Below, in pieces: positions 6,791 to 26,495 of a stretch of 64,000 nucleotides of DNA. A model generated the notes under the pieces. That model was given only the letters and a program-made list of their open reading frames with translations, was not told the origin of the DNA and searched no databases. Made by a program: the position numbers and the translations under genes. The first letter of the stretch is position 1, and each line of letters opens with the position of its first letter. Origin of the DNA: Vairimorpha necatrix (Eukaryota); assembly GCA_036630325.1 (NCBI GenBank), contig CP142734.1:682001-746000 (forward strand), given 5' to 3'.

Positions 6791-6814
6791 TCAATAATGT
6801 TAAGGAAGGCACTT

Positions 6815-7051: not shown

Positions 7052-7208
7052 CACTTCAGCCTCATAACAAGCGGATCTGATATATTTAATAATAGTATGA
7101 CTTTTTATTGTTTTTAATTTGAATATACCCAAAAGTGCTTGGCTTCATTCTCATTGATTCTACTATTCTTCATACCCATCAAAGAAAAAACATTTATATA
7201 CTAAAATA

Positions 7209-8316
7209 GGTGCATCTTTAGTAACGTGCAGAAGGTAACACCCCCCCCCCCTTACAGAAAAAAATTTAACAAAATTTTGAATAAAAATATGAAAACGATA
7301 TAAAAATGCTTATTTAATTCATTAGTTTTTATAAAAGATTAACAAAACCCTTATAGAAGTCTACCATAACATCTTCTCGAAGCATAAATTTCCTATACAT
7401 AAATTCATCGAGCAATGTATCTATCTCCGACCGTTTTACTCCATGTTCTTTGGTCATTTCAGACTTCATTTGAGACCATACGTTCTCAATATTATTTGTA
7501 TGGATACCATCAGGAGATAAAAAACCTATAGAATGATTAACAACTTGATGACTTAGACATAAATTTTCTGACACCCCAGAATAACTAGGATGACCATCGC
7601 TATGTAAAACCGAACCTACACCAATTCTTCCCTCTAGAGCAGCAGTAAGGCACTCAATGGTTCTATTCTCTACCCTCGTAATGTAGAAGTTTGAAGGATT
7701 TTGAGCATCTATTATGCCCAAAATCCAAACGGTGTCCCTTATAAAGTCGTCCGAAGAGGTAGGAGATCTTATTTTACCCCCTCGGCACATAACAGACTCA
7801 TCTACTTGAACGACTTGCCCGGGTCCTCCGATTATAATTCTATGCATATCTTTATAGATCTTTCGGAGGCTGCTTTTTACGGCAGAGATTGTAGCTGTTG
7901 AAACGCCTAATCTTGCCATCAACTGAAAGTAAGAATATCTGCATAATATTCCAAATACAAGGTCACAGAATGTTTGAAGAGGGACCTTGCTGGGTTTATT
8001 AACAGCCAGCCTCGCACTGCATTTAAGTTCAAGCAGCGATATGCTACTCTTGTAACGATTTCTTTCTTGACAGGACCCAATCTCATGTTACATCCACATT
8101 TGGAACATGATTTTTGCTCCTTCAGCACTTCTAAGTCAATTAAAGCTTCTAAACAGGTGTCAATGTTATGGAAGAGCCTTTGTATATACACAAGTTTCAT
8201 TTTTGTGCTTTTCTTTAGTAACGTGCCGGAGTTTTCTAAATCTAAGTTTTCCATTTTAGGGGTAAAAAAATATTTTTTAAAAAAACAAAATCCCGGCACG
8301 TTACTAAAGATGCACC
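7209..8316 (-). mobile_element. Merlin transposon (copy A), frameshifted transposase
   Basis: TIR GGTGCATCTTTAGTAACGTGC; ORF 7329-7922 with VQVDES, SDGHPSY, HTNNIENVW; near-identical inverted copy at 23835-24939. Confidence 0.95.
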
Positions 8317-9053
8317 ATTTATTTTTACTGTCTCTTGGAGCCCTACAGTATCTGGATGCATGCATCGACTTTCCGCAATTGTAACAAGTAACTTGTTTTG
8401 GTTCCCGAACCTTCAAAGTCTTAAGTTGTGTTAAGATACTTTCCAGTTCTCTAATTTTCTCTTTAAGTTCAAGTTCCTTCTTTTCTAATTCCTTTTTTCC
8501 CTTTTTAATTTTTCTGCTTGATAAGTACCTTCTAACAGTCTAATGTCACTAAATAAAATTTCATTAACTACTTTACCTCTAATTGTTATTCTTTTTACAT
8601 CTGGGATCTCATACTTCATTCCCGCCAAGATAATTTTTTTTATATCTTCATTGTTTAGTTTATGAGCTCTGGCTCCTTCATCCACCAGTTTAATATAACA
8701 CAAATAGTCTCACCTGGTCCCTGTTTAAGACTTAACACATCTTTCATGCCTAATTTATTTGGAGAGCAAAATTCCTCCAATTCTTCCTTCCAACGACTCC
8801 AATTGAAAGCCGCTTTTCTCTGCTTCTGGTTGCAATACCAATCAATTATTTCAGGGCAAGCTCTGCTGATTATAAATTCCCTCTTCTGTTCATCACTCAT
8901 GCTTTTAAAATATGACAGTTTTCTAGTCTCTTGAGCTCTAGAGTAGCATTTTTATTGTAAGTTCTCTTGTCATGGGAATTACTTTTTCATTCCCCCCATT
9001 TTGTTTTCAAGCTCACTGTTCATAAAAATTAAGGGGTAAAAATTTAAATTTTT
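8317..9053 (-). pseudogene. gag: Gypsy gag (5' part of an element broken by inversion; continues at 24940)
   Basis: TACCCC..ATG at 9023, capsid-like ORFs 8655-8900 and 8485-8703, CYNCGKSMHASRYC zinc knuckle. Confidence 0.8.
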
Positions 9054-10094
9054 GGCTAAAGTCCACTTTAGCACGCAAAATTTGATATAGGGGTTTTTGT
9101 GTTTTTTTTGCTTCTTTTTAAAAATATGGAGGAGAGAATTTTGACGAGAGAAGAATTAGAAATCATATATAATGATTTAATGAGTAAGTTCTCGACTTAC
9201 CCCCACCCCTAAAAAAATAAAAAAAAATAAAAAAATAAATTATTTGACCCATAATGAGAATTAAAGAATTCAGAAAACTCATCTATAAAAAAATGAGTTA
9301 ATGCAATTTTTAATTGCAAAAAAAACATTTTGAGGGTTCCTATGTGCAATAAATGCAATATACCAATGACTCAAAATCGGACCAACACTGAAAACTATCG
9401 TTGTTATTCAAGACGTGAAGGTAAAAAATGTTCTAACAAAAGAACCATAATGAAACAAAGCGTTTTTAAGAACTCAAAATTGCCTATTGAGGATCTTTTA
9501 ATATTGCTTTGCGAATGGGTAAAGGGTTCAAGTAATTTGGCCGCCACGTTAGAACTTGATATAGGTAAATGTACGGTATCAAGATGGTTTACGCGTTTTA
9601 ATAACGCCGTGTACGTCTGCTATTCAACATATATAAACAATCAAACGATTGGCGGCGTCGGTTGTATTATTGAAATTGATGAAACTTTACTTGTAAAAAG
9701 TAAAAAACCATGCGGGAAGGGTTCTTCAATATCAAGTATGGGCAGTTGGAGGCGTTGTGAGAGGAAATGCGAATTCTTTTTTCTTTGAAATCGTAGAAAA
9801 TAGAACAAGAGTGATGTATCCCACTCTGAAATACGTCTCCAAAATACTTTTAGTAAAATTCAGTTTATTATTAATATTTTTATTGTTTAATCCAGGTCTG
9901 TCCCCGGTCGTTGTTCGGTCTGCTTCCTTAATTCTTTGTTGGTTGTTTTTCATCTTGTATTGTGGGTCAGGGCCAATTTTTATTTATAGCTTTAATTGTT
10001 TATTTGGTAAACAAACAAAACAAAACAAAACAAAACAAAATTAATAAATGTGTGGATCTTTAAGCAAGGATACCACAACCTGCCCTCTCCATTC

Positions 10095-10925
10095 TCAGGC
10101 CTGCAAATCAGTTGGTTTCGTTTTTATATTGTCAACATGTATCCACTCCTTCCTTTCGTTAATTTTTATCCAATTCTTTTTCTTACTCACTTCTGTAACC
10201 ATGTAAGGCCCAACGTAACAATCGTCAATCTTATTGCCTGTAAAATTCTCGACAAATATGGTATCTCCAACCTCTAAGGTGTTGTGCTCTTTGCTACTGA
10301 TATTTTCGGCCGCTCTGTCGCCTTTCTCGTCCGACCTTATTGTTATTTTAGGTTTATGATCTTTAGTTATTCTGTCCATGTCTAAGGCTGAATATCCTCT
10401 TAACACTGCATATGGTTGTTCTTGAATTCCCCTATGAAAATTTATATTTAGTCGTCTCATAATTAATTTTGTGACCAAATTTATTTCTTCGCCTTTATAC
10501 ATTCTGAGAACTTCGGCTATGGTCTGATTAAGCCTCTCGCTTATTCCGTTGGACGAAGGGTGATATGCTGGCGTCGCTATTTTCTTGATATTATTTTTTG
10601 TTAAGAATCGATCAAATTCCGCACTTGTATACTGCTTACCGTTATCGCAGATTAATGTTTGCTGGTAACCAAATTTCGTAAACCATTTCTCAAACTCTCT
10701 CGTCAGTTCTTTAGTGGTTGATTTCTCCAATAGTGTTACTCGCGTGTATCTACTGTATATATCTGTTATTGTCAGAAAGAATCCCCGTGTACTAAGTAAC
10801 GAATTTTCGTACTCTGCCAACTCGAAGGGACCAAAAATGTCTGTGCTAATCTTATCCATCAGCTTATCTGACTCAATTTTATACTTCTTCTTTTTCGTGT
10901 TTTCATCCTTTTGCATATTATGCAA
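10095..10925 (-). CDS. pol: Integrase core (frameshifted continuation of pol)
   Basis: DIFGP, CDNGKQY, SNGISERLN, GPY motif. Confidence 0.9.
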   Translation of the reverse strand: MHNMQKDENTKKKKYKIESDKLMDKISTDIFGPFELAEYENSLLSTRGFFLTITDIYSRYTRVTLLEKSTTKELTREFEKWFTKFGYQQTLICDNGKQYTSAEFDRFLTKNNIKKIATPAYHPSSNGISERLNQTIAEVLRMYKGEEINLVTKLIMRRLNINFHRGIQEQPYAVLRGYSALDMDRITKDHKPKITIRSDEKGDRAAENISSKEHNTLEVGDTIFVENFTGNKIDDCYVGPYMVTEVSKKKNWIKINERKEWIHVDNIKTKPTDLQA

Positions 10926-12694
10926 GTTTTACAATTTTTAACTGTTTCTGAAATCTTTCGTTTAATGTCTTTTATGTTATAGACATTTCTGATGTTCTGA
11001 TACATTACGGTTACTCCGGGATGAACAGTAAATTCATGTATTATCTTCAGAAATTCCTTAACGTTGTTGTCTTGTATTATATATCGATTATTCTCGTCTT
11101 TTAATTGTTTTCCATTTTCTTGTACTACCAACTTTTTCCTTATATATTTTTTTAGATCTTCCATGTCCTCGAATTTATCTATCATATAACAACGTGATAG
11201 TTTATCGGCTATGTGATTAGATGTTCCTTCAATCGTGGTCAGTTCTACATCGTATTCGTTTAGAATTAATTTCCATCGTTCGGTTCTTTTTGAAATTTCC
11301 TTATTTTCAAATATGCAATTTCTACTATCAGTCTGTAACTCTATCTTGTATCCCTGTATTAATGTTCTGTAAAATTCCAATGTTTTAACGATGGCAAACA
11401 TTTCTTTCTCTACAATCGTATAATTAAGCTCAGACTGCGAAAATTTTCTGCTATAATAGCCTATTATGCCGCGTTCTTGGAATAAGACTGCTCCCATCCC
11501 GTTATTTGACGCGTCGCATTGTATTGAGAACTTTTTGCTAAAGTCGGGCAGTCTTAGCTGTGCTGTAGTTTTGATCTCTTCTTTTATCTCTTTTAACGCC
11601 AAGTTTTGGGCGTCTCCCCATTTCTCTTTGCAATTTTTTTTCAATAGGCGCGATATACAAGAGACTCGCCTACTTACATCTGGTAAGAAATTGCGATACC
11701 AGGTGATTATTCCCATTATCTTCTGTATATCCTTTTTCCTGTATGGGATTGACTCTTCGTTTAATAGCTTATCGATATTTTTAGTATCTATTCTGATCCT
11801 GTCGTTTTCAATCACGTTTCCAAGTATTTCTAGTCTCTTGGTCGCAAACATGCTTTTTTCAAAATTTATTTTAACTCTGTAGTCCATTAGTCGGGTTAAT
11901 ACCTCTAGTAATTTCTCATTATGTTCTTTAGGAGTTGACCCATATATCACTATGTCGTCTATATAAACGATTATATTTTCGATTCCGTGTAATATATAAT
12001 TAATCGTCTTTTGGAATAATTTGGGTCCTGATTTTATTCCAAATGGTATTCGTTTATATCTGTATTGTTCTCCAAAAATCGTAAAGCTTGTAATGTCTCT
12101 GCTACTCTCTTCAAGTTCTAGTTGGTTAAACCCGTTTTTTAAATCAATTTTGCTGTAATAAGTGTTTCCTCCAAGTTTATATAAACTTTCAAAAATTTTT
12201 GGTATTATACATATTTCATCTTTTATAAATTTGTTAACTGTACGATAATCAACTACTAACCTCAGTTCCTTATTTTTCTTTTCGATAAAAAATGAAGGGC
12301 TAGCATAATAGTTTCTACCTCGTTCAATGATATCGTTAGTCAGTAACCTTGATATTTCCTTTCTAGCATCAGCCTCGTACTTTACTGGTACGGTATAGTA
12401 TTTAAGTTCCAGTCTATGGTCTCTAATTTTTTCATCAATATAAAGGCTTGGCGGTTCTACCTTAATTTTATCATGTTCTTCATTCTTTTTTATATATTCG
12501 GTCAATCTACGTGGTATATTCGTTTCATTTAAAATTTTCGATTCTTTTATTAATAAAATTCTGTCATATAGTATAGCATCTATTTCATCTGTTTCTATCT
12601 CTTCTGCGCCGATCATTGGTAAAATAGCGTTGTTTACAATGATTCTTTTGTTTTTATAGTCAAGTAACCAGCCGTTGTTTAGTAAAAAAATCAC
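10859..12694 (-). CDS. pol: Pol: reverse transcriptase, RNase H, integrase zinc finger
   Basis: LRLVVDYR, KIDLKNGF, YIDD, CDAS, ADKLSR, H-H-CC. Confidence 0.92.
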   Translation of the reverse strand: MIFLLNNGWLLDYKNKRIIVNNAILPMIGAEEIETDEIDAILYDRILLIKESKILNETNIPRRLTEYIKKNEEHDKIKVEPPSLYIDEKIRDHRLELKYYTVPVKYEADARKEISRLLTNDIIERGRNYYASPSFFIEKKNKELRLVVDYRTVNKFIKDEICIIPKIFESLYKLGGNTYYSKIDLKNGFNQLELEESSRDITSFTIFGEQYRYKRIPFGIKSGPKLFQKTINYILHGIENIIVYIDDIVIYGSTPKEHNEKLLEVLTRLMDYRVKINFEKSMFATKRLEILGNVIENDRIRIDTKNIDKLLNEESIPYRKKDIQKIMGIITWYRNFLPDVSRRVSCISRLLKKNCKEKWGDAQNLALKEIKEEIKTTAQLRLPDFSKKFSIQCDASNNGMGAVLFQERGIIGYYSRKFSQSELNYTIVEKEMFAIVKTLEFYRTLIQGYKIELQTDSRNCIFENKEISKRTERWKLILNEYDVELTTIEGTSNHIADKLSRCYMIDKFEDMEDLKKYIRKKLVVQENGKQLKDENNRYIIQDNNVKEFLKIIHEFTVHPGVTVMYQNIRNVYNIKDIKRKISETVKNCKTCIICKRMKTRKRRSIKLSQIS

Positions 12695-13937
12695 TTCCTA
12701 AGATCATTTTTTCTGGCAAATTCTTGAGAATATGTACATCTTCATAAGTCACTTTATTTAGTCCCGCAAGTCTTATTTCCACTCTGGCCTTTTTATTAGT
12801 CTTTCCTTTTGCTCCGTTCCCAAATATAAGTGATATTTCGTCAGTTTCTTGTGTCTTTATTTTTAACTTATCAGCTATTTCGGCACTCATAAAGCTCTTA
12901 TTCGCTCCGCTATCGATCATTATGTCAATTGGAGTTTCGTTGATGGATCCCCTTAATTGAGTCTTCTCAAAATTCTGAACGTTTTCCTTTATAAAGTACA
13001 CGTTTCTATTGTCTTTATTATCGTTATTTCTTTTGTAAAAATCTTTATCATATTTAGTGCATTCCTCAGTGGTGTGGTTAGAATATTTATGCAACTTGCA
13101 GTATTTGTCTTTTTTAAATTCTGAATGGTTATTATGCATTGGTCTATTATCATTACTATTGATGCTGCGAAATTCTCTAATCTCTTTAGCTCTTATCGAA
13201 ATTTTTATTTCTAAGCCCTTTAAAAATTCAAATGAAGCTTGGTAACTACCGAAGCCATATTCCAGTACTCTTCCGTACGTGAACTTCCCCAAGCCGGCAT
13301 GGAAAGCTTCCTCAAATAGTCTGTCAACCTCTTCATCCATTAGTTTTTCCATTGTCCTTACGATAGTTAGATTTTGTTTAATCGCGTCATAGTATTCTTG
13401 AATTTTCGTATAGTTTGTCTGGTGTATATTTAACAATTTTCTTCTGTAGTATCTTCGTTCCTCTAAAGGAAATTTTACCGAAATTAAATATTTCTTAATC
13501 TCATTCCATGTTTCATATTTATTGTAGTCCATAAGTTTATCGTCTTTTATCAGTTGTCTTAATATTGCTAACTGTATTCTTTTATCCCATTTGTTAACTT
13601 CTATTAATGTTTCAATTTCTTGGCACCATTTTAAGATGTCCAAACTGTCGATGTCTTCTATAATTTTTATTTCTTGGCTAAGTTTGTCTTCTAGTCCTTC
13701 TATCTTCATTGAGAAGGTTAGTGATTTAGTGTTAAATTGCTGTTCTTTTTTCTTCGTATCGTATTCTTTTGGGTTCTCGTCTTTTGAGCTCAAATTGATG
13801 TATCCCACTCTGAAATACGTCTCCAAAATACTTTTAGTAAAATTCAGTTTATTATTAATATTTTTATTGTTTAATCCAGGTCTGTCCCCGGTCGTTGTTC
13901 GGTCTGCTTCCTTAATTCTTTGTTGGTTGTTTTTCAT
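12660..13937 (-). CDS. gag: Gag + aspartic protease
   Basis: CKLHKYSNHTTEEC knuckle, IDSGA protease motif, ILGSDF; starts within the 5' LTR. Confidence 0.9.
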   Translation of the reverse strand: MKNNQQRIKEADRTTTGDRPGLNNKNINNKLNFTKSILETYFRVGYINLSSKDENPKEYDTKKKEQQFNTKSLTFSMKIEGLEDKLSQEIKIIEDIDSLDILKWCQEIETLIEVNKWDKRIQLAILRQLIKDDKLMDYNKYETWNEIKKYLISVKFPLEERRYYRRKLLNIHQTNYTKIQEYYDAIKQNLTIVRTMEKLMDEEVDRLFEEAFHAGLGKFTYGRVLEYGFGSYQASFEFLKGLEIKISIRAKEIREFRSINSNDNRPMHNNHSEFKKDKYCKLHKYSNHTTEECTKYDKDFYKRNNDNKDNRNVYFIKENVQNFEKTQLRGSINETPIDIMIDSGANKSFMSAEIADKLKIKTQETDEISLIFGNGAKGKTNKKARVEIRLAGLNKVTYEDVHILKNLPEKMILGSDFFTKQRLVT

Positions 13938-15178
13938 CTTGTATTGTGGGTCAGGGCCAATTTTTATTTATAGCTTTAATTGTTTATTTGGTAAACAAAC
14001 AAAACAAAACAAAACAAAACAAAATTAATAAATGTGTGGATCTTTAAGCAAGGATACCACAAAGAGCTACTCTTGTTAAATTAATCACAAGAAAAATTGC
14101 TCCGGGGACCACAATTGTGACAGATTGTTGGCGCGGCTATAGTGATATTCAAACAATCTGTGTAGAATATGAGTATCTACATTTGACTGTGAATCACAGC
14201 CAAAATTTTGTTGATAATATAACTGGTGCGCATACTCAGACTATAGAGGGAATGTGGTCGGTTCTTAAAAGAGAACTAAGAAAAAGCGGAACTAGTCATG
14301 GTACTATTATGAATCTTATAAGAAAGATTTACTATAATAGATTAAAATTAATATATCGTGAAAATCTATTAGATAAAATGTTAGAATTTTTTGAAATAGG
14401 TAATTTTAGTATTTTAGCATATAAAAGTATTCCTAAAATAGATTTTACAATTGTGGCATAATTTTTTTTTTAGGGGTGGGGGGTGTAGGTCAAGGACTTC
14501 ACCGATTTAATATAGAAATTTCAAAATAAAACTTGTGATATATGTTATGGTAGAATGAGGACAGAAAGAAAAGACAGTAGTATCTTAAAGTGTACTTGGG
14601 AAGATTGTAAAAAGTCAATTTCAATTTGGCATGATACGTTCAATGATAATTGTAAACTCAATCATATAACATGTTTACAGATACTTAACATGTGGGTTAT
14701 CGGTTATTCTCGGAAGCATATTTGTCAAATTTTAGGTTGTACGAAAAAATCAATATCTTCATTATTGAAAAAACTTAAGGAAATATGCATTTACGATAAA
14801 TATTTATCTACTCTGAACATGCTTGGTGAAGAAGGGATAATAGTTGAGATCGACGAATCAAAAATTGGAAAAAATAAATACAATAGAGGTAAATTAGTGA
14901 AAGGCTTCTGGTGTTTTGGCATGGTCGAACGAACCATAGAACGTAGAATCATAATGCTTCATATTAAAAAAAGGGATAAAGAAACACTTACTGATCTTTT
15001 GGTGAAATATGTAAGTAGAGATAGCATTGTATATAGCGATATGTGGAGAGCCTACAATTCTTTGGGGTACTACATTTAGCTAACATAATAAAATTAATCA
15101 TTCATTGTATTACAGGGACCCAAATACGGGAGTTCATACCAATACCATAGAAGGTAATTGGCGTTCCCTTGAAAATTC

Positions 15179-16389
15179 GGCGCTACTTCATTTTCTTGCC
15201 CCCCCTAAAAAAAACATACATAAAAAAATACAAAATCGTGTTATTTTTCAAATCTAAACATTTTTTTTTTGAGGGGGGCAAGAAAATGAAGTTAAGGTAT
15301 TTTTTGTCGATTTGAGAATTTTTAAATGCCTCCTTCAGATTCCTCATTAAGGGGTTAAAAAATTTTAATTTTTTAATCCTTAATAAGAAATTTAAAGGAA
15401 GCTATTCGGGAGCTAAATATCTGCGAAGATGCGTGCTTTAGGCACAATGAAGCAGTAATTGATTTTTTTAGATAATAGTCTTCTAAAAAGATCGATTGCT
15501 TGCAGACATTGTTCGACATCAGAACGAACTGTTCTTATGAACATTAATGGATGTTCCGGCTAAATTGACGGTAAAGCTTATCGTTGTGTTAATAAAAAGT
15601 GTAGTTCGAAGAGCTCACTTAAAAATGGTACGATTTTAAAGGGATAAGCGTTCAATTTCACAAAATTCTTAGAGCATTCTATGGCTGGGTATTAAATTAT
15701 ACTACTTACCAAGCAATATATCTTTGCAAAATATGTGAAAATTCATATATTAAAATCAAGAATACAGTGATGGAAGTCATTGCTTCTAAAAGCGATGATA
15801 GCTACCAAATATGAGGAACTTCTGTTTGTGTACAATTTGATTAAACCGCCATATGCAACGGGGAAATTGTATCCAATCCTCCTTCAACTTTGGATTCCAT
15901 GTCTGGAATTCAATGGATTATAGGCGGCATAGTAGAAGGTAACTGTAGAGAATTTGTTCTTGAATTGCTACCGAATCGACAATCTGGTACTATTGAAGAG
16001 TTTTTTAGACACAGAGTAAAACGTGGTTCTATTATAATTTCTGATGGATACCCTTTATGCCCCCAGCCTTTAGAAATTTTGGGAGTGAACATTACAAAGT
16101 AAATCAATCGCTTGGGTTTATAAATGCGGAAGGAGACCACACAAATAATATAGAAAATTTGTGGTCCCATTTGAAGAATGAATATAGATCGAGAATGGGG
16201 CTTAAAAGGCATAGGATAAATTTATTTCTAAAAGAATTCGCTTGGAAAAAAAATATCAATTATTTTAATAATGATGATCATAGTTGTGCTTATATAAAAA
16301 TTTTAAAACTTTGTAGGTTGGAATAAATAAAATTTCTTCTAAATAATTTTTTTTCTAGGGGGGGGGGGGCAAGAAAATGAAGTAGCGCC
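15179..16389 (+). mobile_element. Merlin transposon (decayed transposase) nested in 9054-16626
   Basis: TIR GGCGCTACTTCATTTTCTTGCCCCCCC, TSD GAAAATTC, SDGYP / HTNNIENLW motifs. Confidence 0.92.
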
Positions 16390-16626
16390 GAAAATTCTAT
16401 ACCTATAATAGAAATAGATCAGTTAATAGTGCAAAACTTTGTTTATTTAGGTATGTGCTCTAGAAAATAATTCTAATTCTGTTTTTGATGCATTATTAAA
16501 TTTATTGTTCTAATTTTAAATTTTGTTCCTTCCTCCACATTTTCTCTCCTACATTTTTTTAAAAAAAGGGCCAAAAAACACAAATAACCCTATATCGAAT
16601 TTTGCGTGCTAAAGTGGACTTCAGCC

Positions 16627-16998
16627 CCTGTTTCTATTATGATCTCTAATCAATGGGCAGCATATGAGGCCACATTAGACATGCAAAGAGATGGAGCACA
16701 GTACTACGAATCATCTCATCAATACTGTAACATTAAGCGATTCTGAGACACAATACCAAATAATTTAGTTAGTTTTGGCTCATTTCTAAAAGAATATTCG
16801 ATTTATACACGGAATAAACCAGGGAGAACACTATTAGCACCTTTTAAAGTTCCTCCGGGCGTTCCAAATTCCTAAAAATCACTGATAAATCGTCTTCTTT
16901 CATTATTTAAAATTAATAGTTAAGTCTCTTTTTTATAATTTTTTTTATTTTTCCCTTTTTTTGAATTTTCCAAAGCGGGTACCGCCGGTCATGTACCC
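16627..16998 (+). mobile_element. Degenerate Merlin 3' relic
   Basis: SNQWAAY- and TNH-like motifs; GC-rich putative end ...CATGTACCC. Confidence 0.4.
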
Positions 16999-17444
16999 AC
17001 AAAGTGCATTAAAAGCAAGTGTTAAGAGTATTAGATGAGGTTGGTTTAAATTTAAATGCGTCAAAATGTGAATAAAGAAAAGAAGAGCTAAGGATTTTGA
17101 GAGTAACAGTTGGGAATAATGATATTAGAATTAATGACGATAGGATTAAGCAAAATGTAGATATGCCTGTGCCCACGTCAATGAAAGATTTGGAATCGTT
17201 TTTGGGATTGATTAATTATTACAGTCGATTTTTGAAAAATGTATTTGAGCATAAAGAATATTTATATGTGTTATAGCCTGATGCTATGTCAAGAATTCTT
17301 GATATTTAATTTTTATCAAAAATTTCATTAATCATATTTTGTGTTTATTTTCCATAATGAGGGGTAAAAATAATAAGGATATATAACATCCCCCCTCCAA
17401 GACGGTAGTCTCATACTAGAACTCATTAATCCCAAGCAGATCTT

Positions 17445-18977
17445 TTAAATCATAATGCCGCTTTTCACGATCCTACCATTTTCCAAACTAACTAAGTACG
17501 AGTCACCTCCGCAAATTTCCTTGATAACACCATATCCTAAAAACCTTCCTTTCTCATACTTACTACAACCCGATAAGTTCTCTTTCTTCGCTACCCTAAC
17601 TCTCTGACCTTTATAGAATTTCTCTCTTTTGCGAGCCACAAACCTCCTACTATAAAATCCTTCAGGTCCATTCTCGATCATAACATGGCCCGTTTCGTCT
17701 CTTGAGGCCTCAAACGGTGTACATCTCAACCCTTCATGATAGCTGTTATTATAACGCCATATACATCTATTAACCTTGGCTTCAAAATCCACAGCATCAT
17801 CTTTCAATATTCCTTCTCTTATGGTTCCTATTACCCTTTCCACTCTTCCATTACTTCTATGACTTTCTACGCTTACTTTCCTATGTAATACATTTTCCTC
17901 TGAACACCAATTCCTCATATATTCATTACTAAATTCTTTACCGTTGTCAGTAATTATTTCTACCGGGTTCATTCCTGATCCACACAACTGTTTTAAAAAT
18001 CCTACAACCGAGCTTCCGCGTTTGTCCTCTATTACTTTTCCCCAAACGATCCTAGTATAATAATCAATCACGACCAACACATATTTCCCTAAATCTCTAA
18101 ACTCAATCAAATCCAAAGCAACCTTTTCAAAATAAAATCTTGAACTAACAAAATTACAACCACCACTCTTTTTCCTATTATGTATTTGGCAAACTTCACA
18201 CTTCTTTAAAACATCCTCGATATCCTTCTTCATACCCGGCAAATAAAATTCAAACTTCATTGCATAGTACACTGGTCCTAAACTTCTATGTCCCAAATTT
18301 TCATGAGCATTGACAATTAAACCTTCACGCAATTCTTTCTTTGGAATCTCCGCTTCTCTACCAGAGTCAAATACCCAAATTTCCTTTCCATCAACAACTT
18401 TAACATGCTTGTCCCATTTACCCTGTGCCTGTTTAATACTTCTCTCCTTATTCATTAGCGTTTTCTCATTTTCATGTACCCTACTCAGTGCATCTGCTAC
18501 AACCATGGTACTAGGCTCTCTATATTCAATACTAAAGTCGAACTCTTGAATCTTTTCAATCCACCTGTTAATTCTATTATTGTTAAATGCTGGTTTATTT
18601 CTAATCTCGATCAATGCCTTATGATCAGTTTCTACCCTAAATCTTCTTCCGCGTAGTTCATATTCAAACTTTTTAATTCCCCAAAAGACTGCATACATCT
18701 CCTTCTCACTGATTCCATATCTCTTTTCCGTAGGCGTAAACTTTTTTGATGCCCACTGTACTGGTACCCAATTACCTTGATCATCTTCCTGCATTAAAAC
18801 AGCACCCATTCCAACATTACTCGCATCCGTGCGTAACAAAAATTCCTTATTATAATTAACAATTGCTAAACCTTTTAAATCCCTAATCACTTCCCTTAAA
18901 CTAATATATTCTTTTTCCATTTCTTCTGTCCATTTCCAATTACTTCCTCGTCCTTTAAGAGAATCCGTCAACGCCAA
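17445..18977 (-). CDS. pol: RNase H + integrase
   Basis: TDAS, TDHKAL, ADALSR, HHCC, TDNGKEF, SNGRVER. Confidence 0.92.
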   Translation of the reverse strand: MALTDSLKGRGSNWKWTEEMEKEYISLREVIRDLKGLAIVNYNKEFLLRTDASNVGMGAVLMQEDDQGNWVPVQWASKKFTPTEKRYGISEKEMYAVFWGIKKFEYELRGRRFRVETDHKALIEIRNKPAFNNNRINRWIEKIQEFDFSIEYREPSTMVVADALSRVHENEKTLMNKERSIKQAQGKWDKHVKVVDGKEIWVFDSGREAEIPKKELREGLIVNAHENLGHRSLGPVYYAMKFEFYLPGMKKDIEDVLKKCEVCQIHNRKKSGGCNFVSSRFYFEKVALDLIEFRDLGKYVLVVIDYYTRIVWGKVIEDKRGSSVVGFLKQLCGSGMNPVEIITDNGKEFSNEYMRNWCSEENVLHRKVSVESHRSNGRVERVIGTIREGILKDDAVDFEAKVNRCIWRYNNSYHEGLRCTPFEASRDETGHVMIENGPEGFYSRRFVARKREKFYKGQRVRVAKKENLSGCSKYEKGRFLGYGVIKEICGGDSYLVSLENGRIVKSGIMI

Positions 18978-19070
18978 TGTACGTTTTGCATAATTATCAA
19001 TATGATTTCTAAACCATCCAGCCAGCCCAAGAAACTTCCTAACATCTGATACACACTCCGGTTTGGGAAA

Positions 19071-19508
19071 TTATAACGCTTCATTTTGCTTTATTTCAGA
19101 TGGCAGTATCTCCTTGCCATTAACTGTTACTCCTAACAACATCACCTCTCGTTTACATAATTGAACCTTAGCCAAATTAATTTTCATATTATTCTCCTCT
19201 AATATATCCACAGCCTCTTTCGACAATTTGTCGTGACCCTCTCTTGTCTTACTATGAATCACAATATCGTCCATATAAATTTCGATTCCCTTACCAATAA
19301 ATTTTTCAAAAATCCCATTCATTATTCTTTGTAATATCTGCGGAGAGTTTTTAAACCCCATGACCATCGAATTCCACTCGTATACCTTTTTATTAAACTC
19401 AAAAGCCGTCTTAAACCTTTCCTTCTCTTCAATCTCAATACTATAAAACCCCTCCTTTAGATCTATCACGGTAAAAAAATTCAGATCCCTGTGTACTTCT
19501 AATAACAT
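19071..19508 (-). CDS. pol: Reverse transcriptase core (frameshifted piece)
   Basis: IDLKEGF, MGFKNSP, YMDD. Confidence 0.88.
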   Translation of the reverse strand: MLLEVHRDLNFFTVIDLKEGFYSIEIEEKERFKTAFEFNKKVYEWNSMVMGFKNSPQILQRIMNGIFEKFIGKGIEIYMDDIVIHSKTREGHDKLSKEAVDILEENNMKINLAKVQLCKREVMLLGVTVNGKEILPSEIKQNEAL

Positions 19509-20490
19509 CTCTTATCCTAGTTAACTCATAAGGGTCCTTCTCTACAATGTCATTAAGAGCAATTAAATTACTTACTAATCTTATATCACCATTCGGTTTC
19601 TCAATCGCTCTAATGGGATTTCTCCAGTCAGATGTCGACCTTCTAATTATCTTTCTTCTTTCCAAACTATTAATATAATCTTCCGTCTTCTTCAACAAAG
19701 CCTGAGCTATAGCCTGCCCTTTTTTAACAACTTTCTTGCCTTCTTGAGTCTTGATAATATATTTTTCAACCTTACAAAAACTAATATCTTCATCCTCTCT
19801 TCCTCCTACCCGTGAAATAATCTCCTCTAAATACGCGATGCCTCTTACATCCCTTCTCAACAGAACTCTCTTATTATTGTCCCTTTTGCTATAATCTTGT
19901 ATATCCCCTAAATTTTTCTTCTTACGTTTTCCACCATCAACATTATAATAATCACATTTGTCCGAATTGGAATCGTCATCACATTTACCCTCTAAGTCTA
20001 ATTGCACTTTACATTTACCAACATAATTAAAACTACTTTTATTTCTTCTGTCTTCAGAATCTTGCCTCATTCCCCTACAAAATCTAACACTATGGCCTAA
20101 CTTCCCACAATTGTAGCAACGCATATTCTTTTTATTTTCCCCACGAGACAACTTATTCTTCTCCTCAAATTTAGCCCATAACGCTAGGGACAACTCTTCA
20201 AATTCTTTTTTTCTCACTTGTTCCTTTTCCTCCTGAATAGCTAGCAACTCTAATTTTTCCTCAATTTCCTTCCAACTACCCTCTTGCGAGATCCTCTCAA
20301 CAATAAAATTTCTCAATAAAATAGAACCTCTCCTAAAAATTTCTAACTTAAATCCACACTCATCAATTTTCTCTAAAAACAACTCATAAACAATCCTTTT
20401 AACCTCTTTTAATAATATTCTAGCCTCTTGGCCACGGTCCTCCTTTGTAGACCCATTTTCTGGTATCGCCCCCATGTGTTTATTTTCCAT
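19441..20490 (-). CDS. gag: Short Gag (CCHC) fused directly to RT N-terminus
   Basis: CYNCGKLGHSVRFC then WRNPIRAIEKPNGDIRLVSNL; ATG inside LTR. Confidence 0.85.
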   Translation of the reverse strand: MENKHMGAIPENGSTKEDRGQEARILLKEVKRIVYELFLEKIDECGFKLEIFRRGSILLRNFIVERISQEGSWKEIEEKLELLAIQEEKEQVRKKEFEELSLALWAKFEEKNKLSRGENKKNMRCYNCGKLGHSVRFCRGMRQDSEDRRNKSSFNYVGKCKVQLDLEGKCDDDSNSDKCDYYNVDGGKRKKKNLGDIQDYSKRDNNKRVLLRRDVRGIAYLEEIISRVGGREDEDISFCKVEKYIIKTQEGKKVVKKGQAIAQALLKKTEDYINSLERRKIIRRSTSDWRNPIRAIEKPNGDIRLVSNLIALNDIVEKDPYELTRIRDVIRSTQGSEFFYRDRSKGGVL

Positions 20491-20712
20491 AATGAGGGGT
20501 AAAAATAATAAGGATATATAACATATTTTACAAAAAATATTTAAATAAAAGTTTTAAAAGAAGGATAAGATAAAATGAGAAGAGAAACATTTGATCAAGA
20601 GAGGGCCATACTAGGACAAGGGCCAAGGTACAATGAATATAACAATATTAAAAATAAAAGCATTATAAGTATAATTGAAATCTGTTTTAAAGACGGGTGT
20701 TTTCCCCGTGGG

Positions 20713-21810
20713 GGCGCTAGGGCCTATTCCCGTGTAATGAACGTAAAAAAACGGCATTTCCCGGAAATAGGCCCTAAACTGCGAAATTTTTACAACCCCC
20801 AAAAATGAATAATTTTGAAGAAGAACCAAAAAATTCGAGATCTGACATTTTTTCTTCAAATAAAGCTGCCATGGCCTTTATTCAAAGGCATGACTTACTT
20901 GAAGAATTTAAAACATGCTCGAAATGTTATGAGAGCATGGTTTTGGAACATGATATTTCTTATTCGAACGGTTTTCGATTCAGATGTACTAACTTATTTT
21001 GTAGAAAATCCAAATCAGTTTTTGAGGTGCTAAAAATTTCAAGTCCAAAGATAGACACAACCGAATACTTATTCATAATATATTCATGGCTCAAAAAAAA
21101 TTATGAATATAATATTAATAAAAAAAACTTCGGTTTTTAAATACTATAAAAAGAATTAAAAGGAATATTATAGAAGTATTAACTGAAGATAATAAGAATA
21201 CATGGGAGAAATTGAGGCCAGAGCACCCAATACAAGTGGATGAGAGTGTTATAATAAAAGGAAAACTTATTAAGTCAACATCTGAAATGTATGATTCAAT
21301 TAGTAAAGCTACTTTGATAATTGGCGCAGTAGAAAAAAAAAACTAGAAACTAGTTCTTAAAGTTTTACCAAACAGACAAAAAGAAACTTTCTTCGACCTT
21401 TTCTCTGAAAATATTAGTCCTATGTCTGTAATAAAAACAGATGGGCGTAGATCCTACCCATACGCTGTTGCTGGGATTGGTGGAGTACATAAAATCGTGA
21501 ACTATGTGGAAGGATTCACCAATTCTGATGGAGACCACACTAATTTAATAGAATGTGAGTGGTCTCATTTCAAATCGGACATCAAAACGAGGAAAGGAAT
21601 ACCAGGTTATTCAATGCCAGGGTATATAGAAGAATATGTTTGGAGGAGAAGAAATTTAGTTACCCATGATTCCAAAGCCTATAAAGACGCCTTTTTAACT
21701 CTCTTAAAACTTTTAATTTGAAATATATAATTGAGTTTTTTTTCTTTAATTTTTTGTTAAAGGGTCCCCCCTTTAAACAAAAAAATTACCCGGGAATAGG
21801 CCCTAGAACC
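20713..21810 (+). mobile_element. Merlin transposon
   Basis: TIR GG..CTAGGGCCTATTCCCG, TSD CCCGTGGG, transposase pieces 20805-21140 and 21422-21721 (TDG, HTNLIECEW). Confidence 0.9.
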
Positions 21811-22808
21811 CCCGTGGGCATGACAATATGGTTTACTGAAGAAGGGAAATGAAGGAAAGTTTAAGACGATTGAGGATGATGAGAAGAACAAGAAATCAAT
21901 ATAGAATTGAAGTTAGAAGTTAGGAAAACAACATGGTTGGCGTTGCTCTGAAGGAGAGGGAAATTTATTTTATACACGGACGCTTCTGACATAGAGAGTG
22001 GGGCGATTTTGACACAGATACAGGATGGAGAAGAGAAAATTGTTAGGTTTTTTTTAGTAAAGTTCATTAATGGGAAATGAACTATTCTGCTACAGAAAAG
22101 AAATGTTGAATGTAATTAAGGCATTGACAGAGTTAAGATCGGATTTAATTTGGATGAGTTTGAGCTTCGAACGGATCATAAGGCATTGCTGTGGTTGTTT
22201 TCGTTACGAAATATGAACGGAAGATTAGCAAGATGGTCATTACTGTTACAAGAATATGATTTTGAAATAAAACACATTAAAGGTGAAGAAAATCCAGCGG
22301 ATGTATTAAGTAGAACTGCTTGTATTGATGCAGTATTAGAGGTTTAGGAAGTGTCAGTAGAAAAGGGCTTTAAGAAACATGAGATGTTAGCGCATGGTTC
22401 AGCAAAGGCAGTTTGTTATGGTTTGAAAGGTGATTAAAGAGAGATATCAAAAGTAAAAGTAAGAGATATACTTAAGAATTGTGGGGTTTGTAAACAGATG
22501 GGCGTTTTAAAATTTAATAGATCAAATAATAGTATTCAATCATTAGGTACTTTTAAATTATGGGAGATTGATTTAATGGGTCCATTGAGATTGGTTTCAG
22601 AAGAAAACAAGTTTATTTTAACAATGAATGATCATTGGACAAGATGTTTGAGTGTGTAGGGGTGAAGGCAAAAGATATGGGAGTTATTGTTGAAGCAGTT
22701 GAACGATGCATATTGAAAAAATATGGCATACGGGGGAAGATTTTGTCGGATAACGGTAAAGAGTTCAGGAACAGAATTACGGCGGAATTGGCCAATAAGT
22801 ATGGATTT

Positions 22809-23109
22809 TGTAGTATTATAAATGCCACAAATTATTTATTTTTTATTTTATCAATTTTCCCTTTTTGGAATAGACCATTCGACCGGTCTATTCCAAAAAT
22901 CAAAATTATTTCCTTTTTGCCCCGACCCCCCACAAAATCATGAGACAAGATAAAGATCATTACCCTTGGAATCTACGACCAAGGAAGGGCCTCAGAGCCA
23001 GGGACCAGTATCCCATTACGGATGCCCTACGAGGCTTTAATCAACTAAATGAAGTAAAAAATCTAATCGAACTATATTTGTCCAGAGGTAGCTTCTCTGG
23101 ATTGCGTCA
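22809..23109 (+). repeat. Solo LTR in integrase
   Basis: TG...CA termini, TSD GATTT, homologous to 35950-36274. Confidence 0.9.
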
Positions 23110-23834
23110 GATTTAAATGGGGGTTTACATCTCCTTATTCTCCGAGAACTACAGGTTTAATAGAGAGATTCAATGGTACGTTCATTAGGAAGTTAAGGAA
23201 ATTGTGTAGATTCGGTTCGTTGGATTGAGGAGAGCAGCTAGAAAAAGCAAGACCAGGATATTTAAATTCATATCATAGAATCATAAAATGTACACCATTG
23301 GTAAAACGCATGATGGAACAGGAAGAGAACTTTTTGGAGCAATCGAAGGCGGGGAAAATTTTAGCTAAAGAAAGCAGGTTTATGAGTTAATGGTCCAAAC
23401 ACAAGGTGGGTGATTTTGTTATGTTTAATAATAAGTCAGTAAGTAGGGATAAATTAGATCCAAAATATACTCATAAGGGGAATTCTAGAGAAAATGTTCG
23501 AGTCAGCTAGACTGAAATTAAATGATGGAAGAGTAGTTGTTTCAAATGTAAGACAGTTAGAATTTTTTTGGTAAGGGGAGGGGGAAGCGTGGTATGTACC
23601 ATTCTGTAATATTTATTCCTTATTTTTTTTCTCAATTTAAATTAATGTTAACAGACAATAACAATAAATAGAGAATCAAATTGCATTGTTAATACTAACA
23701 ATGTTTTAGTTTTTTTTATTTTCTAAAATTCAATAAAATGTCACATTAACCAATGATATTTAACTAATTGTTTTTTGTTAATAAAGAAATTTTAATTAGT
23801 ATTGCTCTGAATTGATTTTTTTATTGTATTTTAG

Positions 23835-24939
23835 GGTGCATCTTTAGTAACGTGCCGGGATTTTGTTTTTTTTAAAAAATATTTTTTTACCCCTAAAATG
23901 GAAAACTTAGATTTAGAAACTCCGGCACGTTACTAAAGAAAAGCACAAAAATGAAACTTGTGTATATACAAAGGCTCTTCCATAACATTGACACCTGTTT
24001 AGAAGCTTTAATTGACTTAGAAGTGCTGAAGGAGCAAAAATCATGTTCCAAATGTGGATGTAACATGAGATTGGGTCCTGTCAAGAAAGAAATCGTTACA
24101 AGAGTAGCATATCGCTGCTTGAACTTAAATGCAGTGCGAGGCTGGCTGTTAATAAACCCAGCAAGGTCCCTCTTCAAACATTCTGTGACCTTGTATTTGG
24201 AATATTATGCAGATATTCTTACTTTCAGTTGATGGCAAGATTAGGCGTTTCAACAGCTACAATCTCTGCCGTAAAAAGCAGCCTCCGAAAGATCTATAAA
24301 GATATGCATAGAATTATAATCGGAGGACCCGGGCAAGTCGTTCAAGTAGATGAGTCTGTTATGTGCCGAGGGGGTAAAATAAGATCTCCTACCTCTTCGG
24401 ACGACTTTATAAGGGACACCGTTTGGATTTTGGGCATAATAGATGCTCAAAATCCTTCAAACTTCTACATTACGAGGGTAGAGAATAGAACCATTGAGTG
24501 CCTTACTGCTGCTCTAGAGGGAAGAATTGGTGTAGGTTCGGTTTTACATAGCGATGGTCATCCTAGTTATTCTGGGGTGTCAGAAAATTTATGTCTAAGT
24601 CATCAAGTTGTTAATCATTCTATAGGTTTTTTATCTCCTGATGGTATCCATACAAATAATATTGAGAACGTATGGTCTCAAATGAAGTCTGAAATGACCA
24701 AAGAACATGGAGTAAAACGGTCGGAGATAGATACATTGCTCGATGAATTTATGTATAGGAAATTTATGCTTCGAGAAGATGTTATGGTAGACTTCTATAA
24801 GGGTTTTGTTAATCTTTTATCTAAACTACTGAATTAAATAAGCATTTTTATATCGTTTTCATATTTTTATTCAAAATTTTGTTAAATTTTTTTCTGTAAG
24901 GGGGGGTGTTACCTTCCGGCACGTTACTAAAGATGCACC
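23835..24939 (+). mobile_element. Merlin transposon (copy B)
   Basis: TIR GGTGCATCTTTAGTAACGTGCCGG; ORFs 23951-24232 and 24229-24837; inverted near-identical copy of 7209-8316. Confidence 0.95.
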
Positions 24940-25221
24940 AAATAAATCATTTAAAAGAATAAATGAAGTTGTTGAAGATGCCGAGAAGAAAGTGCAAGAT
25001 TTTTATGTAAAATAATTCTGTTTATATTAATGGGTTATTATTCGAGGCTACTCTAAATACAGGTTCTGGAGCTTTCCCACTTTAGTCCCCCTTACATATA
25101 TAAATATCAATTTTTAAAAAATATCCCCTTTTTTCGAAAACCAAAATGGAAAAAAAGGAGGAGAAAAAAATAAAAAAAAAGTACCATATAAATAATCGAA
25201 TATACAAAAAAAATAAATATT

Positions 25222-26495
25222 TGTGGTATTTCTCAGTGGGACCTTCCCCGAGCTGAAAAAACTCTCTACTATATTTGTTATAGTTTTATAATTTTGTTTA
25301 ATATAAGTTTTGTAGGGCTAATGTCGGCTTTAGGAGAAAATTTTCGATATAGGGTTTTTTTGCCCCTTTTTTTCAAAAATGGAGGAGAAAAAATGTGGAG
25401 GAAGAAACAAAAATAAAAATGAAAACAATAAATTTATTAATGCTTCAAACACAGAACTAGAAGAATTTCTTTGAAGCATATACCTGAATAAATAAAGTTC
25501 CGCACTCCGAACTGATCTATTTCTATTTGGTATAGAATTTTTTAAAGATCGCCAATTACCTTCTATGGTATTGGTATGAACTCCAGTAAGTGGGTCTCTA
25601 AAGTGTAGAGAATGATTTACCATTAGATGTTGGTTAAATATTAAGCCTAAATTACGGTAGGCTCTCCACATATCGCCATAAATTATACTATTTCTGTCTA
25701 CATATTTTAACAAAAGATTAGTTAGCGTTATTTGGTCTCTTTTCTTAATATATATAAATATAATTCGGCGGTGTATGGTACGTTCGACCATACCAAAACA
25801 CCAGAAACCTTTCACAATTCTACCTCTATTATTCTTATTCTTGCCAATCTTTTCTCATCGATTTCCACTACTGTATTTTCACCGCCTATAACGCCAATAC
25901 TAGATAAATATTTTTCATAAATATCCAATTCTTTTAACTTTTTTAGTATAAATGACACAGATTCCGCTAAACAACCCAAAATTTGACAAATAGATTTACC
26001 GGATATCCTAGAATCCACATATTAAGTATTTGTAATACTGTAATATGGTTAAGTCTAGAATCTTGGAATAAAGTACCTTTCCATATTGAAACTGTTTTTT
26101 TACAAGTACTCCATTTACACTTCAAGATAAGTTTTTGTTTATTCTTTATTATCATCTGAGCATCACATAATTCACAATTCTTTATTTTATTTTTGGTTAT
26201 TAATGCATTATATATGTTTTCTAATTGCTCTCTTGTTTGAATTTTCTCCTCCATTTTTGAAAAAAATGGGCAAAAAAAACAAAAAAAACCCTATATCGAA
26301 AATTTTCTCCTAAAGCCGACATTAGCCGTTTTGTAGTTGCTAACATATTTATTGTTGTTTTTGTTGTTGTTCATTCTTCTTGAAATACTTGCCCCTAAAC
26401 GAATTATTTTTATTTATACAAAAATAATTTCTAGAAAATTCGTTGAGATTATTGACATCTCAATATGTCAATAATCTCATGTGGTTAATACCAAA
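25222..26495 (-). repeat. Solo LTR interrupted by a Merlin
   Basis: TGTGGTATT...AATACCAAA, TSD ATATT; 15-bp-stem hairpin at 26444-26479. Confidence 0.75.
25316..26327 (-). mobile_element. Merlin transposon
   Basis: Perfect ~40-bp TIR GGCTAATGTCGGCTTTAGGAGAAAATTTTCGATATAGGG, 9-bp TSD GTTTTGTAG, transposase in 3 frames 26254-25330. Confidence 0.95.

What the first reader, a model, noticed from the sequence alone, without database searches (positions are those of the whole stretch)
7201..24947. 15.5-kb inversion between two inverted Merlin copies, shown by swapped TSDs
Seen: copy A flanks are CTAAAATA (7201-7208) and ATTTATTT (8317-8324). Copy B flanks are TATTTTAG (23827-23834) and AAATAAAT (24940-24947), the reverse complements. 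Flipping 8317-23834 restores both 8-bp TSDs. It also rejoins the gypsy gag (...RAPRDSKNK, minus strand at 8317) to its continuation (SFKRINEVV... then protease at 24948, plus strand). Both copies share the same transposase frameshift. Inference: ectopic recombination between two insertions, or intramolecular replicative-type transposition as known for bacterial IS26, which would be unexpected for Merlin.
Basis: partly seen in the sequence, partly recalled or inferred. Interest (0 to 1): 0.75.

Follow-up and report, generated by a model that had tools for sequence, protein, structure and literature searches.

The report
Transposon-bounded 15.5-kb inversion in a microsporidian
Two near-identical copies of a small Merlin jumping gene, lying in opposite directions in a transposon-filled part of a Vairimorpha-like insect parasite genome, bracket 15.5 kb of DNA that has been flipped, a clean but textbook kind of repeat-driven rearrangement.

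Summary
Copy A (7209-8316, minus) and copy B (23835-24939, plus) are Merlin/IS1595-type elements that differ in 11 of 1110 aligned columns. Their 8-bp flanks are exact reverse complements in the crossed pattern, and only at length 8. Flipping 8317-23834 restores two direct 8-bp duplications. It also puts a gypsy gag zinc knuckle back in frame with its tail and protease motif. Three other Merlin-type elements in the window carry ordinary direct 8-9-bp duplications.

The most likely cause (about 0.6) is homologous recombination between two earlier inverted insertions. It does not need IS26-like replication, because hybrid element insertion by cut-and-paste elements gives the same pattern (PMC2775673, passages).

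No read or allele from the source organism was available, so neither mis-assembly nor the parental arrangement could be tested. The inverted segment is all transposon debris.

This is a new example of a known kind of event. This scan has noted similar swapped-duplication inversions on other DNA. Interest is low to moderate.

The parts
7201..7208 (.). Outer flank of copy A: CTAAAATA, one copy of target site X
   Evidence: It is the exact reverse complement of 23827-23834.
7209..8316 (-). Merlin copy A (1108 bp). It has 24-bp GG-initiated terminal inverted repeats and a transposase on the minus strand. It carries the shared 1-nt frameshift at residue 77, a private stop near the C-terminus, and a private change in the outer terminal repeat.
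   Evidence: Pfam DDE_Tnp_IS1595 was tested on the copy B frame only. For copy A the match is inferred (92% identity to P0001). One search gives the ends and the differences.
8317..8324 (.). Inner flank of copy A: ATTTATTT, the reverse complement of target site T
8317..23834 (.). Inverted segment (15,518 bp), made up entirely of transposon sequence
   Evidence: Pfam hits are gag, protease, RT, RNase H, integrase and IS1595-type transposase only.
8318..9050 (-). 5' part of a decayed gypsy gag (three frames), ending in the zinc knuckle CYNCGKSMHASRYC and ...RAPRDSKNK
   Evidence: translation; weak zf-CCHC, E 0.0057; paralogous gag aligns to 8398-8318.
9812..14061 (-). Nested LTR retrotransposon with identical 267-bp LTRs by repeat finding. 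By eye the ends are TG..CA, and it has a 5-bp duplication AAGAG. Open frames cover gag-PR, RT-RH and IN.
   Evidence: A contig of run X2 joins 9806 to 14062, which is the empty site in a related sequence.
15179..16388 (+). Merlin-type element with perfect 20-nt GG ends and an ordinary direct 8-bp duplication GAAAATTC
   Evidence: The Pfam IS1595 hit is weak (E 0.0028). tblastn with P0001 gives 2e-14.
17340..20524 (-). Shortened gypsy element bounded by 50-nt direct repeats
   Evidence: A 3165-nt contig of run X2 covers 17360-20524 with 22 differences.
20713..21809 (+). Merlin-type element with a direct 8-bp duplication CCCGTGGG
   Evidence: Pfam IS1595 E 1.9e-10.
23827..23834 (.). Inner flank of copy B: TATTTTAG, the reverse complement of X
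23835..24939 (+). Merlin copy B (1105 bp). It has perfect 24-bp terminal repeats, the shared frameshift at residue 77, and a private 1-nt deletion near codon 7.
   Evidence: (DDE_Tnp_IS1595, E 2.5e-12).
24940..24947 (.). Outer flank of copy B: AAATAAAT, target site T
24948..25091 (+). Continuation of the gypsy: gag tail SFKRINEVVEDAEKKVQDFYVK then a stop, followed in another frame by a protease-like motif ...LLFEATLNTGSGAFPL
   Evidence: The spacing and motif match a paralogous gypsy at about 42.1-42.3 kb, where the knuckle is followed after about 40 aa by FDTGS.
25316..26327 (-). A second Merlin family, with perfect 46-nt terminal repeats and a direct 9-bp duplication GTTTTGTAG
   Evidence: (E 4.1e-15).

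Best explanation
Two copies of one defective Merlin family inserted separately. One went in at CTAAAATA. The other went into the gag gene of an old gypsy element at AAATAAAT, in the opposite orientation and about 15.5 kb away. Each insertion made its own direct 8-bp duplication. Homologous recombination with crossing-over inside the shared ~1.1 kb then flipped the DNA between them. Each copy was left with one flank from each original site, and the gypsy gag was split onto opposite strands. The exchange, or later gene conversion between the inverted copies, made the central ~900 bp identical and left differences only near the element ends.

What is shown: the inverted copies, the exchanged duplications, and the gag frame restored by un-flipping. 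What is inferred: that two copies existed before the flip, and that recombination rather than transposase made the joint.
For: 1. The copies lie in opposite orientation and have exactly exchanged 8-bp flanks, matching only at length 8. The chance of this is about 3e-9.
2. Un-flipping puts the gag knuckle and its tail in one frame for 24 further codons. A paralogous gag reads ...RRNKSSFNYVG across the equivalent point. A second paralogue shows the same knuckle-to-protease spacing on one strand.
3. Three other Merlin-type elements in the window have direct 8-, 8- and 9-bp duplications, so direct duplications are the normal state.
4. There is no footprint, deletion or duplication at any of the four junctions. 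This is as expected for homologous exchange.
5. All 4 substitutions between the copies lie in 100 nt at copy A's outer end, and the central ~900 columns are identical. The scan probability is 0.003 if the changes are independent.
6. Where the direction of change can be judged, the derived state is always in copy A's outer end. This holds for its terminal repeat, compared with the other three ends, and for its stop and L-to-M change, compared with copy B and P0001. Under the recombination model, these changes and copy B's private N-terminal frameshift all map to one older parental element.
7. The same three criteria were used for Galileo inversions in Drosophila (PMC2775673, passages).
Against: No uninverted allele was seen, and no allele with either target site empty. 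Chimerism of the two copies, which is the criterion that separates recombination from one-step models, cannot be shown because no third copy of the family was available. The window holds only these two.

The copies are nearly identical, which is what one-step models predict at origin. The clustering of differences loses significance if neighbouring changes are counted as two events (P 0.16). Three of the 7 indel columns (the two single-base ones and the polyC run) lie in homopolymers and could be sequencing error.

The model needs two independent insertions of the same defective family within 15.5 kb.
Confidence: 0.6

Rival explanations
1. Hybrid element insertion (aberrant cut-and-paste transposition). 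A single Merlin sat at one of the two sites. After replication, transposase supplied in trans paired the left end of the copy on one sister chromatid (or homologue) with the right end of the copy on the other. It inserted the pair into the second site 15.5 kb away. This produced the inversion, the second copy and the exchanged duplications in one step.
For: [quoted passage not shown] Here the copies differ in only 11 of 1110 columns, and about 900 central columns are identical. Only one prior insertion of this family is needed, and the window holds no third copy. An intact 315-aa relative that could supply transposase exists in Vairimorpha necatrix (P0001, 92% identity).
Against: The copies are not identical. 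All 4 substitutions and a terminal-repeat deletion sit at one end of one copy. That is an odd outcome for even decay after a recent one-step event, although the significance is weak. Both copies encode a broken transposase. Nothing shows Merlin activity of this kind in any organism; I searched only for the replicative question.
Confidence: 0.17
2. IS26-like intramolecular replicative transposition 'in trans'. A single Merlin attacked a target on the same molecule, and replication through the strand-transfer product duplicated the element and inverted the interval.
For: The footprint is the same as for IS26 and Tn4401: two copies in opposite orientation flanked by identical 8-bp repeats that are inverted relative to each other (PMC4471558, passages). 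Merlin is related to bacterial IS1016/IS1595 elements (PMC8101967, passages).
Against: Merlin is classed among eukaryotic elements that excise by double-strand breaks (PMC8101967 introduction). I found no report of replicative movement for Merlin or IS1595: one search returned 5 papers, and I read passages of one. The objection from the uneven differences applies here as it does to hybrid element insertion. Nothing here calls for this model over hybrid element insertion.
Confidence: 0.05
3. Assembly artefact or unfixed flip. The interval was placed in the wrong orientation between two 1.1-kb repeats, or both orientations coexist among the nuclei or haplotypes and the assembly shows one of them.
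For: Two inverted repeats with about 900 identical bases are the classic place for an orientation error or for flip-flop recombination. No read from the source organism could be laid: the two runs found hold only related sequence (word shares 0.19 and 0.44), and none of the 16 contig pieces listed (1351 more were not shown) bridges a Merlin copy.
Against: The window is 64 kb of dense repeats with no N, which points to a long-read assembly. If it is the published V. necatrix assembly, the reads were PacBio HiFi from ~18-kb fragments (PMC10759460, passages). Such reads span a 1.1-kb repeat many times over. A wrong orientation would leave the two elements with direct duplications in reality, so the elements and sites would still be real.
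Confidence: 0.08
4. Transposase cut the two inner ends of two existing copies, and the freed 15.5-kb fragment was re-ligated backwards by end joining.
For: Both breakpoints lie exactly at element ends. The two inner ends are the same kind of end, with identical terminal repeats.
Against: All four junctions are exact to the base, with no footprint. Two precise end-joinings would be unusual; this point is inference. Homologous exchange explains the precision without extra assumptions.
Confidence: 0.04

Closest known systems
Galileo-mediated inversions of Drosophila buzzatii (2z3, 2j, 2q7) by ectopic recombination (Delprat et al. 2009, PMC2775673; abstract and passages read)
   Same: Two copies of one cut-and-paste transposon lie in opposite orientation at the two breakpoints. 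Their target-site duplications are exchanged as reverse complements. There is no deletion or duplication at the junctions, and other transposons are nested nearby.
   Different: In that work the non-inverted chromosome was sequenced and both copies were shown to be chimeric against reference copies. Neither test was possible here. This case involves a Merlin element with 8-bp duplications in a microsporidian, a 15.5-kb interval with no host gene, and no known population polymorphism.
Hybrid element insertion and reversed-ends transposition of P, hobo and Ac/Ds elements (as summarised in PMC2775673, passages; the primary papers were not read)
   Same: Hybrid element insertion from one site gives an inversion flanked by two inverted copies with the same exchanged-duplication pattern.
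   Different: It predicts identical copies at origin and a single ancestral insertion. Here there are 11 differing columns, all near the ends. Reversed-ends transposition between two separate elements does not fit. By my own working-through of the joints (inference), it would not make copy B's inner flank the complement of copy A's outer flank.
IS26 / Tn4401 intramolecular replicative transposition in trans (He et al. 2015, PMC4471558; passages read)
   Same: Two inverted copies are flanked by identical 8-bp repeats that are inverted relative to each other, and a disrupted resident element is split by the inversion. There it was ISSwi1; here it is a gypsy gag.
   Different: IS26 belongs to the IS6 family, which is known to transpose replicatively. 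Merlin is related to IS1016/IS1595 and is classed with excising eukaryotic elements. Nothing here shows that the second copy was made in the event.
Merlin superfamily elements of microsporidia (PMC8101967 passages read; PMC4202319 and PMC4405373 seen in a search listing only)
   Same: A DDE_Tnp_IS1595 domain, 24-bp terminal repeats starting GG, 8-bp duplications, and a transposase of about 315 aa. The best relative is a V. necatrix protein at 92% identity.
   Different: These two copies are frameshifted and do not carry direct duplications in the present arrangement.

Membership tests
Merlin superfamily (criteria as stated in PMC8101967, passages) | Transposase with the DDE_Tnp_IS1595 catalytic domain | tested here: met
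   PF12762, E 2.5e-12, 47.5 bits against a cutoff of 27, for the copy B frame; both copies are 92% identical to an intact 315-aa IS1595-domain protein over residues 78-315.
Merlin superfamily (criteria as stated in PMC8101967, passages) | Terminal inverted repeats of 24 bp or more beginning 5'-GG | tested here: met
   The repeat GGTGCATCTTTAGTAACGTGCCGG is perfect at three ends. Copy A's outer end has one deletion and one substitution at positions 21-23.
Merlin superfamily (criteria as stated in PMC8101967, passages) | 8- or 9-bp target-site duplication | tested here: met
   The duplication is not direct as the sequence stands. Exact 8-bp duplications appear for both copies once 8317-23834 is conceptually flipped.
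Transposon-mediated inversion by ectopic recombination (criteria of PMC2775673) | Two copies of one family in opposite orientation at the two breakpoints | tested here: met
Transposon-mediated inversion by ectopic recombination (criteria of PMC2775673) | Exchanged target-site duplications | tested here: met
   both pairs match as reverse complements at length 8 only.
Transposon-mediated inversion by ectopic recombination (criteria of PMC2775673) | Both copies chimeric relative to parental or reference copies | tested here: inconclusive
   No third copy was available. The private derived changes (copy A's outer end, copy B's inner end) would map to one parent under the model. There are too few independent changes to test this.
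Transposon-mediated inversion by ectopic recombination (criteria of PMC2775673) | The non-inverted chromosome carries one copy of each target sequence | not testable with these tools
   No genome is held, and no run of the same organism was found.
IS26-type intramolecular replicative transposition | Inverted copies flanked by identical 8-bp repeats that are inverted relative to each other | tested here: met
   The pattern is as described in PMC4471558.
IS26-type intramolecular replicative transposition | The ancestor had a single copy, and the second copy arose in the event | not testable with these tools
   No ancestral or sister allele was available.
IS26-type intramolecular replicative transposition | A transposase known to move replicatively (cointegrate formation) | not tested
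   No report was found for Merlin or IS1595 in one search (5 papers, passages of one read).
Hybrid element insertion | The two flanking copies are identical | tested here: inconclusive
   11 of 1110 columns differ, all within about 125 nt of one end or about 85 nt of the other. Later mutation or sequencing error could account for them.

The most novel reading that the evidence does not exclude
The second Merlin copy did not exist before the flip. A single defective Merlin, driven by transposase from an intact relative, made the inversion and its own duplicate in one aberrant step. That step would be either hybrid-end insertion between sister chromatids or homologues of a tetraploid, two-nucleus parasite, or true replicative transposition inherited from its IS1595-like ancestry. 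Merlin would then be a direct engine of copy gain and rearrangement in microsporidian genomes.
Probability: 0.2. Interest if true: 0.55.

Novelty: new member of a known kind. Interest (0 to 1): 0.3.

Why it matters
It is a base-exact record that repeats rearrange the transposon-rich half of a Vairimorpha-type genome. It also marks a place where the two orientations, or the parental state, may still differ between the haplotypes of a polyploid parasite. That makes it a cheap test case for how much mitotic or meiotic recombination between dispersed repeats occurs in microsporidia. It would also show whether Merlin elements only supply homology or take an active part.

No host gene is touched, so no phenotype is expected. 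If only recombination is involved, the case adds an example and no new principle.

Tried and rejected
**Whole-genome census.** No genome is held for this window. TSD-swapped pairs could therefore not be counted genome-wide.

**Reads.**
- One run search gave two runs with word shares of 0.19 and 0.44. Both are kept as contigs and are labelled as other organisms.
- Laid on 6000-25999, they show related copies with a few per cent of differences.
- None of the 16 listed pieces crosses a Merlin copy with 31 or more letters on both sides; 1351 more pieces were not shown.
- One X2 contig runs 15 letters past copy B's outer end and then carries 15 letters that do not fit. That is too short to count as a bridge, and I draw nothing from it.
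- No joint between 7208/23826 or 8317/24948 was among the 15 listed joints; 2 more were not shown.

**Other searches that found nothing.**
- A metagenome scan with the 24-nt terminal repeat gave 0 matches.
- A protein search with the gag piece 8318-8539 against longer proteins gave no hit at E <= 0.01. Gag continuity therefore rests on paralogues within the window.
- Earlier-findings look-ups for look-alike stretches found none.

**Readings rejected.**
- Chance: see observation check.
- A larger inverted duplication: the flanks beyond 8 bp do not match.
- A composite transposon insertion: the outer flanks CTAAAATA and AAATAAAT are not a direct repeat.
- Reversed-ends transposition between two separate elements: the orientation and flank pattern do not fit (inference).

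**Test that gave no decision.** The clustering test on the differences depends on how changes are grouped: P 0.003 for 4 independent substitutions and P 0.16 for two events. I use it only as a hint.

**Errors.** One search was an error of mine (frames with stop codons) and was resent as without those frames.


Full report
**What is there**

Copy A occupies 7209-8316 and copy B occupies 23835-24939.
- Both begin and end with GGTGCATCTTTAGTAACGTGC. Those four ends are the only matches in the 64-kb window at up to three mismatches, with none expected by chance.
- The copies lie in opposite orientation. They align over 1110 columns, of which 11 differ.
- The flanks are CTAAAATA and ATTTATTT for A, and TATTTTAG and AAATAAAT for B.
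- The crossed reverse-complement match holds for both pairs at length 8 and fails at every other length from 6 to 12.
- Random 8-mers from this AT-rich window (32% G+C) are reverse complements of each other with frequency 5.5e-5. Two fixed matches are therefore about a 3e-9 event.
- Sequence beyond the 8 bp does not match, so this is not a larger inverted duplication.

**What the elements are**

- The long frame of copy B hits Pfam DDE_Tnp_IS1595 (E 2.5e-12).
- The best database relative is an intact 315-aa 'DDE-TNP-IS1595 domain-containing protein' named by its source as Vairimorpha necatrix, at 92% identity.
- tblastn with that protein shows that both copies change frame at residue 77.
- Copy A also has a private stop five codons from the end (LL*KLMN where copy B and the relative read LLSKLLN). 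Copy B has a private one-base loss near codon 7 that breaks the start of the frame, which copy A keeps.
- With 24-bp GG-initiated terminal repeats and 8-bp duplications, the elements meet the stated Merlin criteria (PMC8101967, passages).
- Earlier notes of this scan call the genome Nosema/Vairimorpha-like, and one names V. necatrix. My only check on this is the 92% protein match.

**Independent support for an inversion**

- On the minus strand a decayed gypsy gag ends in a zinc knuckle and ...RAPRDSKNK at 8318, with one base left over.
- On the plus strand, the frame that starts inside the 8-bp site at 24941 reads NK, then SFKRINEVVEDAEKKVQDFYVK, then a stop. A protease-like ...LNTGSGAFPL follows in another frame. 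Counting the 8 bp once keeps the frame.
- A paralogous gag at 19441-20553 aligns to 8398-8318 and reads ...RRNKSSFNYVG across the same point.
- A further paralogue near 42.1 kb has the knuckle followed after about 40 residues by FDTGS on one strand. The split gypsy would have the same order and spacing once un-flipped.
- A database search for a closer gag relative found nothing, so this support is moderate rather than strong.

**Normal insertions nearby**

Three other Merlin-type elements in the window have ordinary direct duplications (domain support):
- 15179-16388, with GAAAATTC
- 20713-21809, with CCCGTGGG
- 25316-26327, with GTTTTGTAG

The exchanged pattern of A and B is therefore the exception.

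The 15.5-kb interval holds only transposon sequence: gypsy gag, protease, RT, RNase H and integrase, plus further IS1595-type fragments. It includes an LTR element at 9812-14061 with identical LTRs and a 5-bp duplication.

**What could not be tested**

- No genome is held for the window.
- The single run search returned two runs of other, related organisms (word shares 0.19 and 0.44).
- Their contigs show related transposon copies, but no listed piece bridges either Merlin copy and no listed joint links the breakpoints (most pieces and 2 joints were not shown).
- A metagenome scan with the terminal repeat found nothing.
- The parental arrangement, the correctness of the assembly and the rest of the family are therefore all unseen.
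- The window has no N across 64 kb of repeats, which suggests long reads. If it belongs to the published V. necatrix assembly, that was built from PacBio HiFi reads of ~18-kb fragments and resolved four pseudo-haplotypes (PMC10759460, passages). An orientation error at a 1.1-kb repeat would then be unlikely.

**Mechanism**

The literature gives a ready framework. For Galileo in Drosophila, opposite orientation plus exchanged duplications is 'consistent with ectopic recombination'. Hybrid element insertion is an aberrant cut-and-paste event that uses the two ends of copies at the same site on sister chromatids or homologues. It gives a 'strikingly similar' outcome, and differs only in that its copies are identical at origin rather than chimeric (PMC2775673, passages). 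IS26 and Tn4401 give the same footprint by intramolecular replicative transposition (PMC4471558, passages).

Evidence bearing on the choice:
- All four substitutions and a one-base deletion in the terminal repeat lie at 7228-7330, at copy A's outer end. A 4-base polyC length difference sits there too.
- The only other differences are two single-base homopolymer indels near the inner ends. About 900 central columns are identical.
- Where polarity can be judged, the derived state is always in copy A's outer end.
- This fits an older, more decayed copy at the CTAAAATA site recombining with a younger copy in the gypsy gag, with the exchange or later conversion erasing differences in the middle. 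Under that model copy B's private frameshift also comes from the older parent.
- The statistics are weak: P is 0.003 if the four substitutions are independent, and 0.16 if they are grouped as two events. Continuing conversion between inverted repeats would produce end-biased differences under any origin.

My weights are: recombination 0.6, hybrid element insertion 0.17, true replicative transposition 0.05, artefact or unfixed flip 0.08, and precise end-joining after double cleavage 0.04.

**Comparison and verdict**

This works like the Galileo, hobo and IS-bounded inversions and meets two of the three sequence criteria used for them. The third criterion, chimerism, and the parental allele remain untested.

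I found no report of such an event in microsporidia. One search combined microsporidia, inversion, transposable elements and ectopic recombination. It returned 6 papers, none about microsporidia judging by title and abstract start. That is a thin basis for a claim of priority.

The same scan has already logged copia- and IS-bounded inversions with swapped duplications in other genomes. The event touches no host gene.

It is a well-documented new example of a known kind. Its main use is as a handle on repeat-driven recombination, or aberrant Merlin transposition, once the sister haplotypes are compared.

Noticed in passing
window 34000-38335: A palindrome-like structure: two inverted arms of about 1.5 kb (34000-35506 and 36840-38335, 94.8% identical overall) around a spacer of about 1.3 kb. 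Identity is graded, at 98-99% in the outer parts and 84-92% towards the centre. GG-initiated 20-nt inverted ends at 35271 and 37074, next to the palindromic 8-mer AAATATTT, lie inside the arms. It is unclear whether this is a long-TIR element or an inverted duplication.
   Followed up: partly
window 9812-14061: An LTR retrotransposon with 100% identical 267-bp LTRs, a 5-bp duplication AAGAG, and open gag-PR, RT-RH and IN frames. It looks like a very recent insertion. A contig of the related run X2 joins 9806 to 14062, which is the empty site in a related copy of the host repeat.
   Followed up: partly
window 17340-20524: A shortened gypsy (gag, part of RT, RNase H, integrase; no protease hit) bounded by identical 50-nt direct repeats. 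It is present almost unchanged, with 22 differences over 3165 nt, as one contig in run X2, which is labelled as a different organism.
   Followed up: no
window 14048-16627: Merlin nested in Merlin. The element at 15179-16388, with its own 8-bp duplication, interrupts a copy of the second Merlin family. The flanking parts of that copy match 25316-26327 at 73-84%.
   Followed up: partly
window 7209-8316 and 23835-24939: Each element carries an internal near-copy of the inner half of its terminal repeat (CTTTAGTAACGTGCCGGAG, for example 8212-8230) just upstream of the transposase start. The start codon lies about 60 nt inside the end.
   Followed up: no
window 6810-7051: A contig of run X2 skips 242 bases here. 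The stretch resembles the LTR of the element at 9812-14061 at about 66%, so it may be a solo LTR of a related family, just left of copy A.
   Followed up: no
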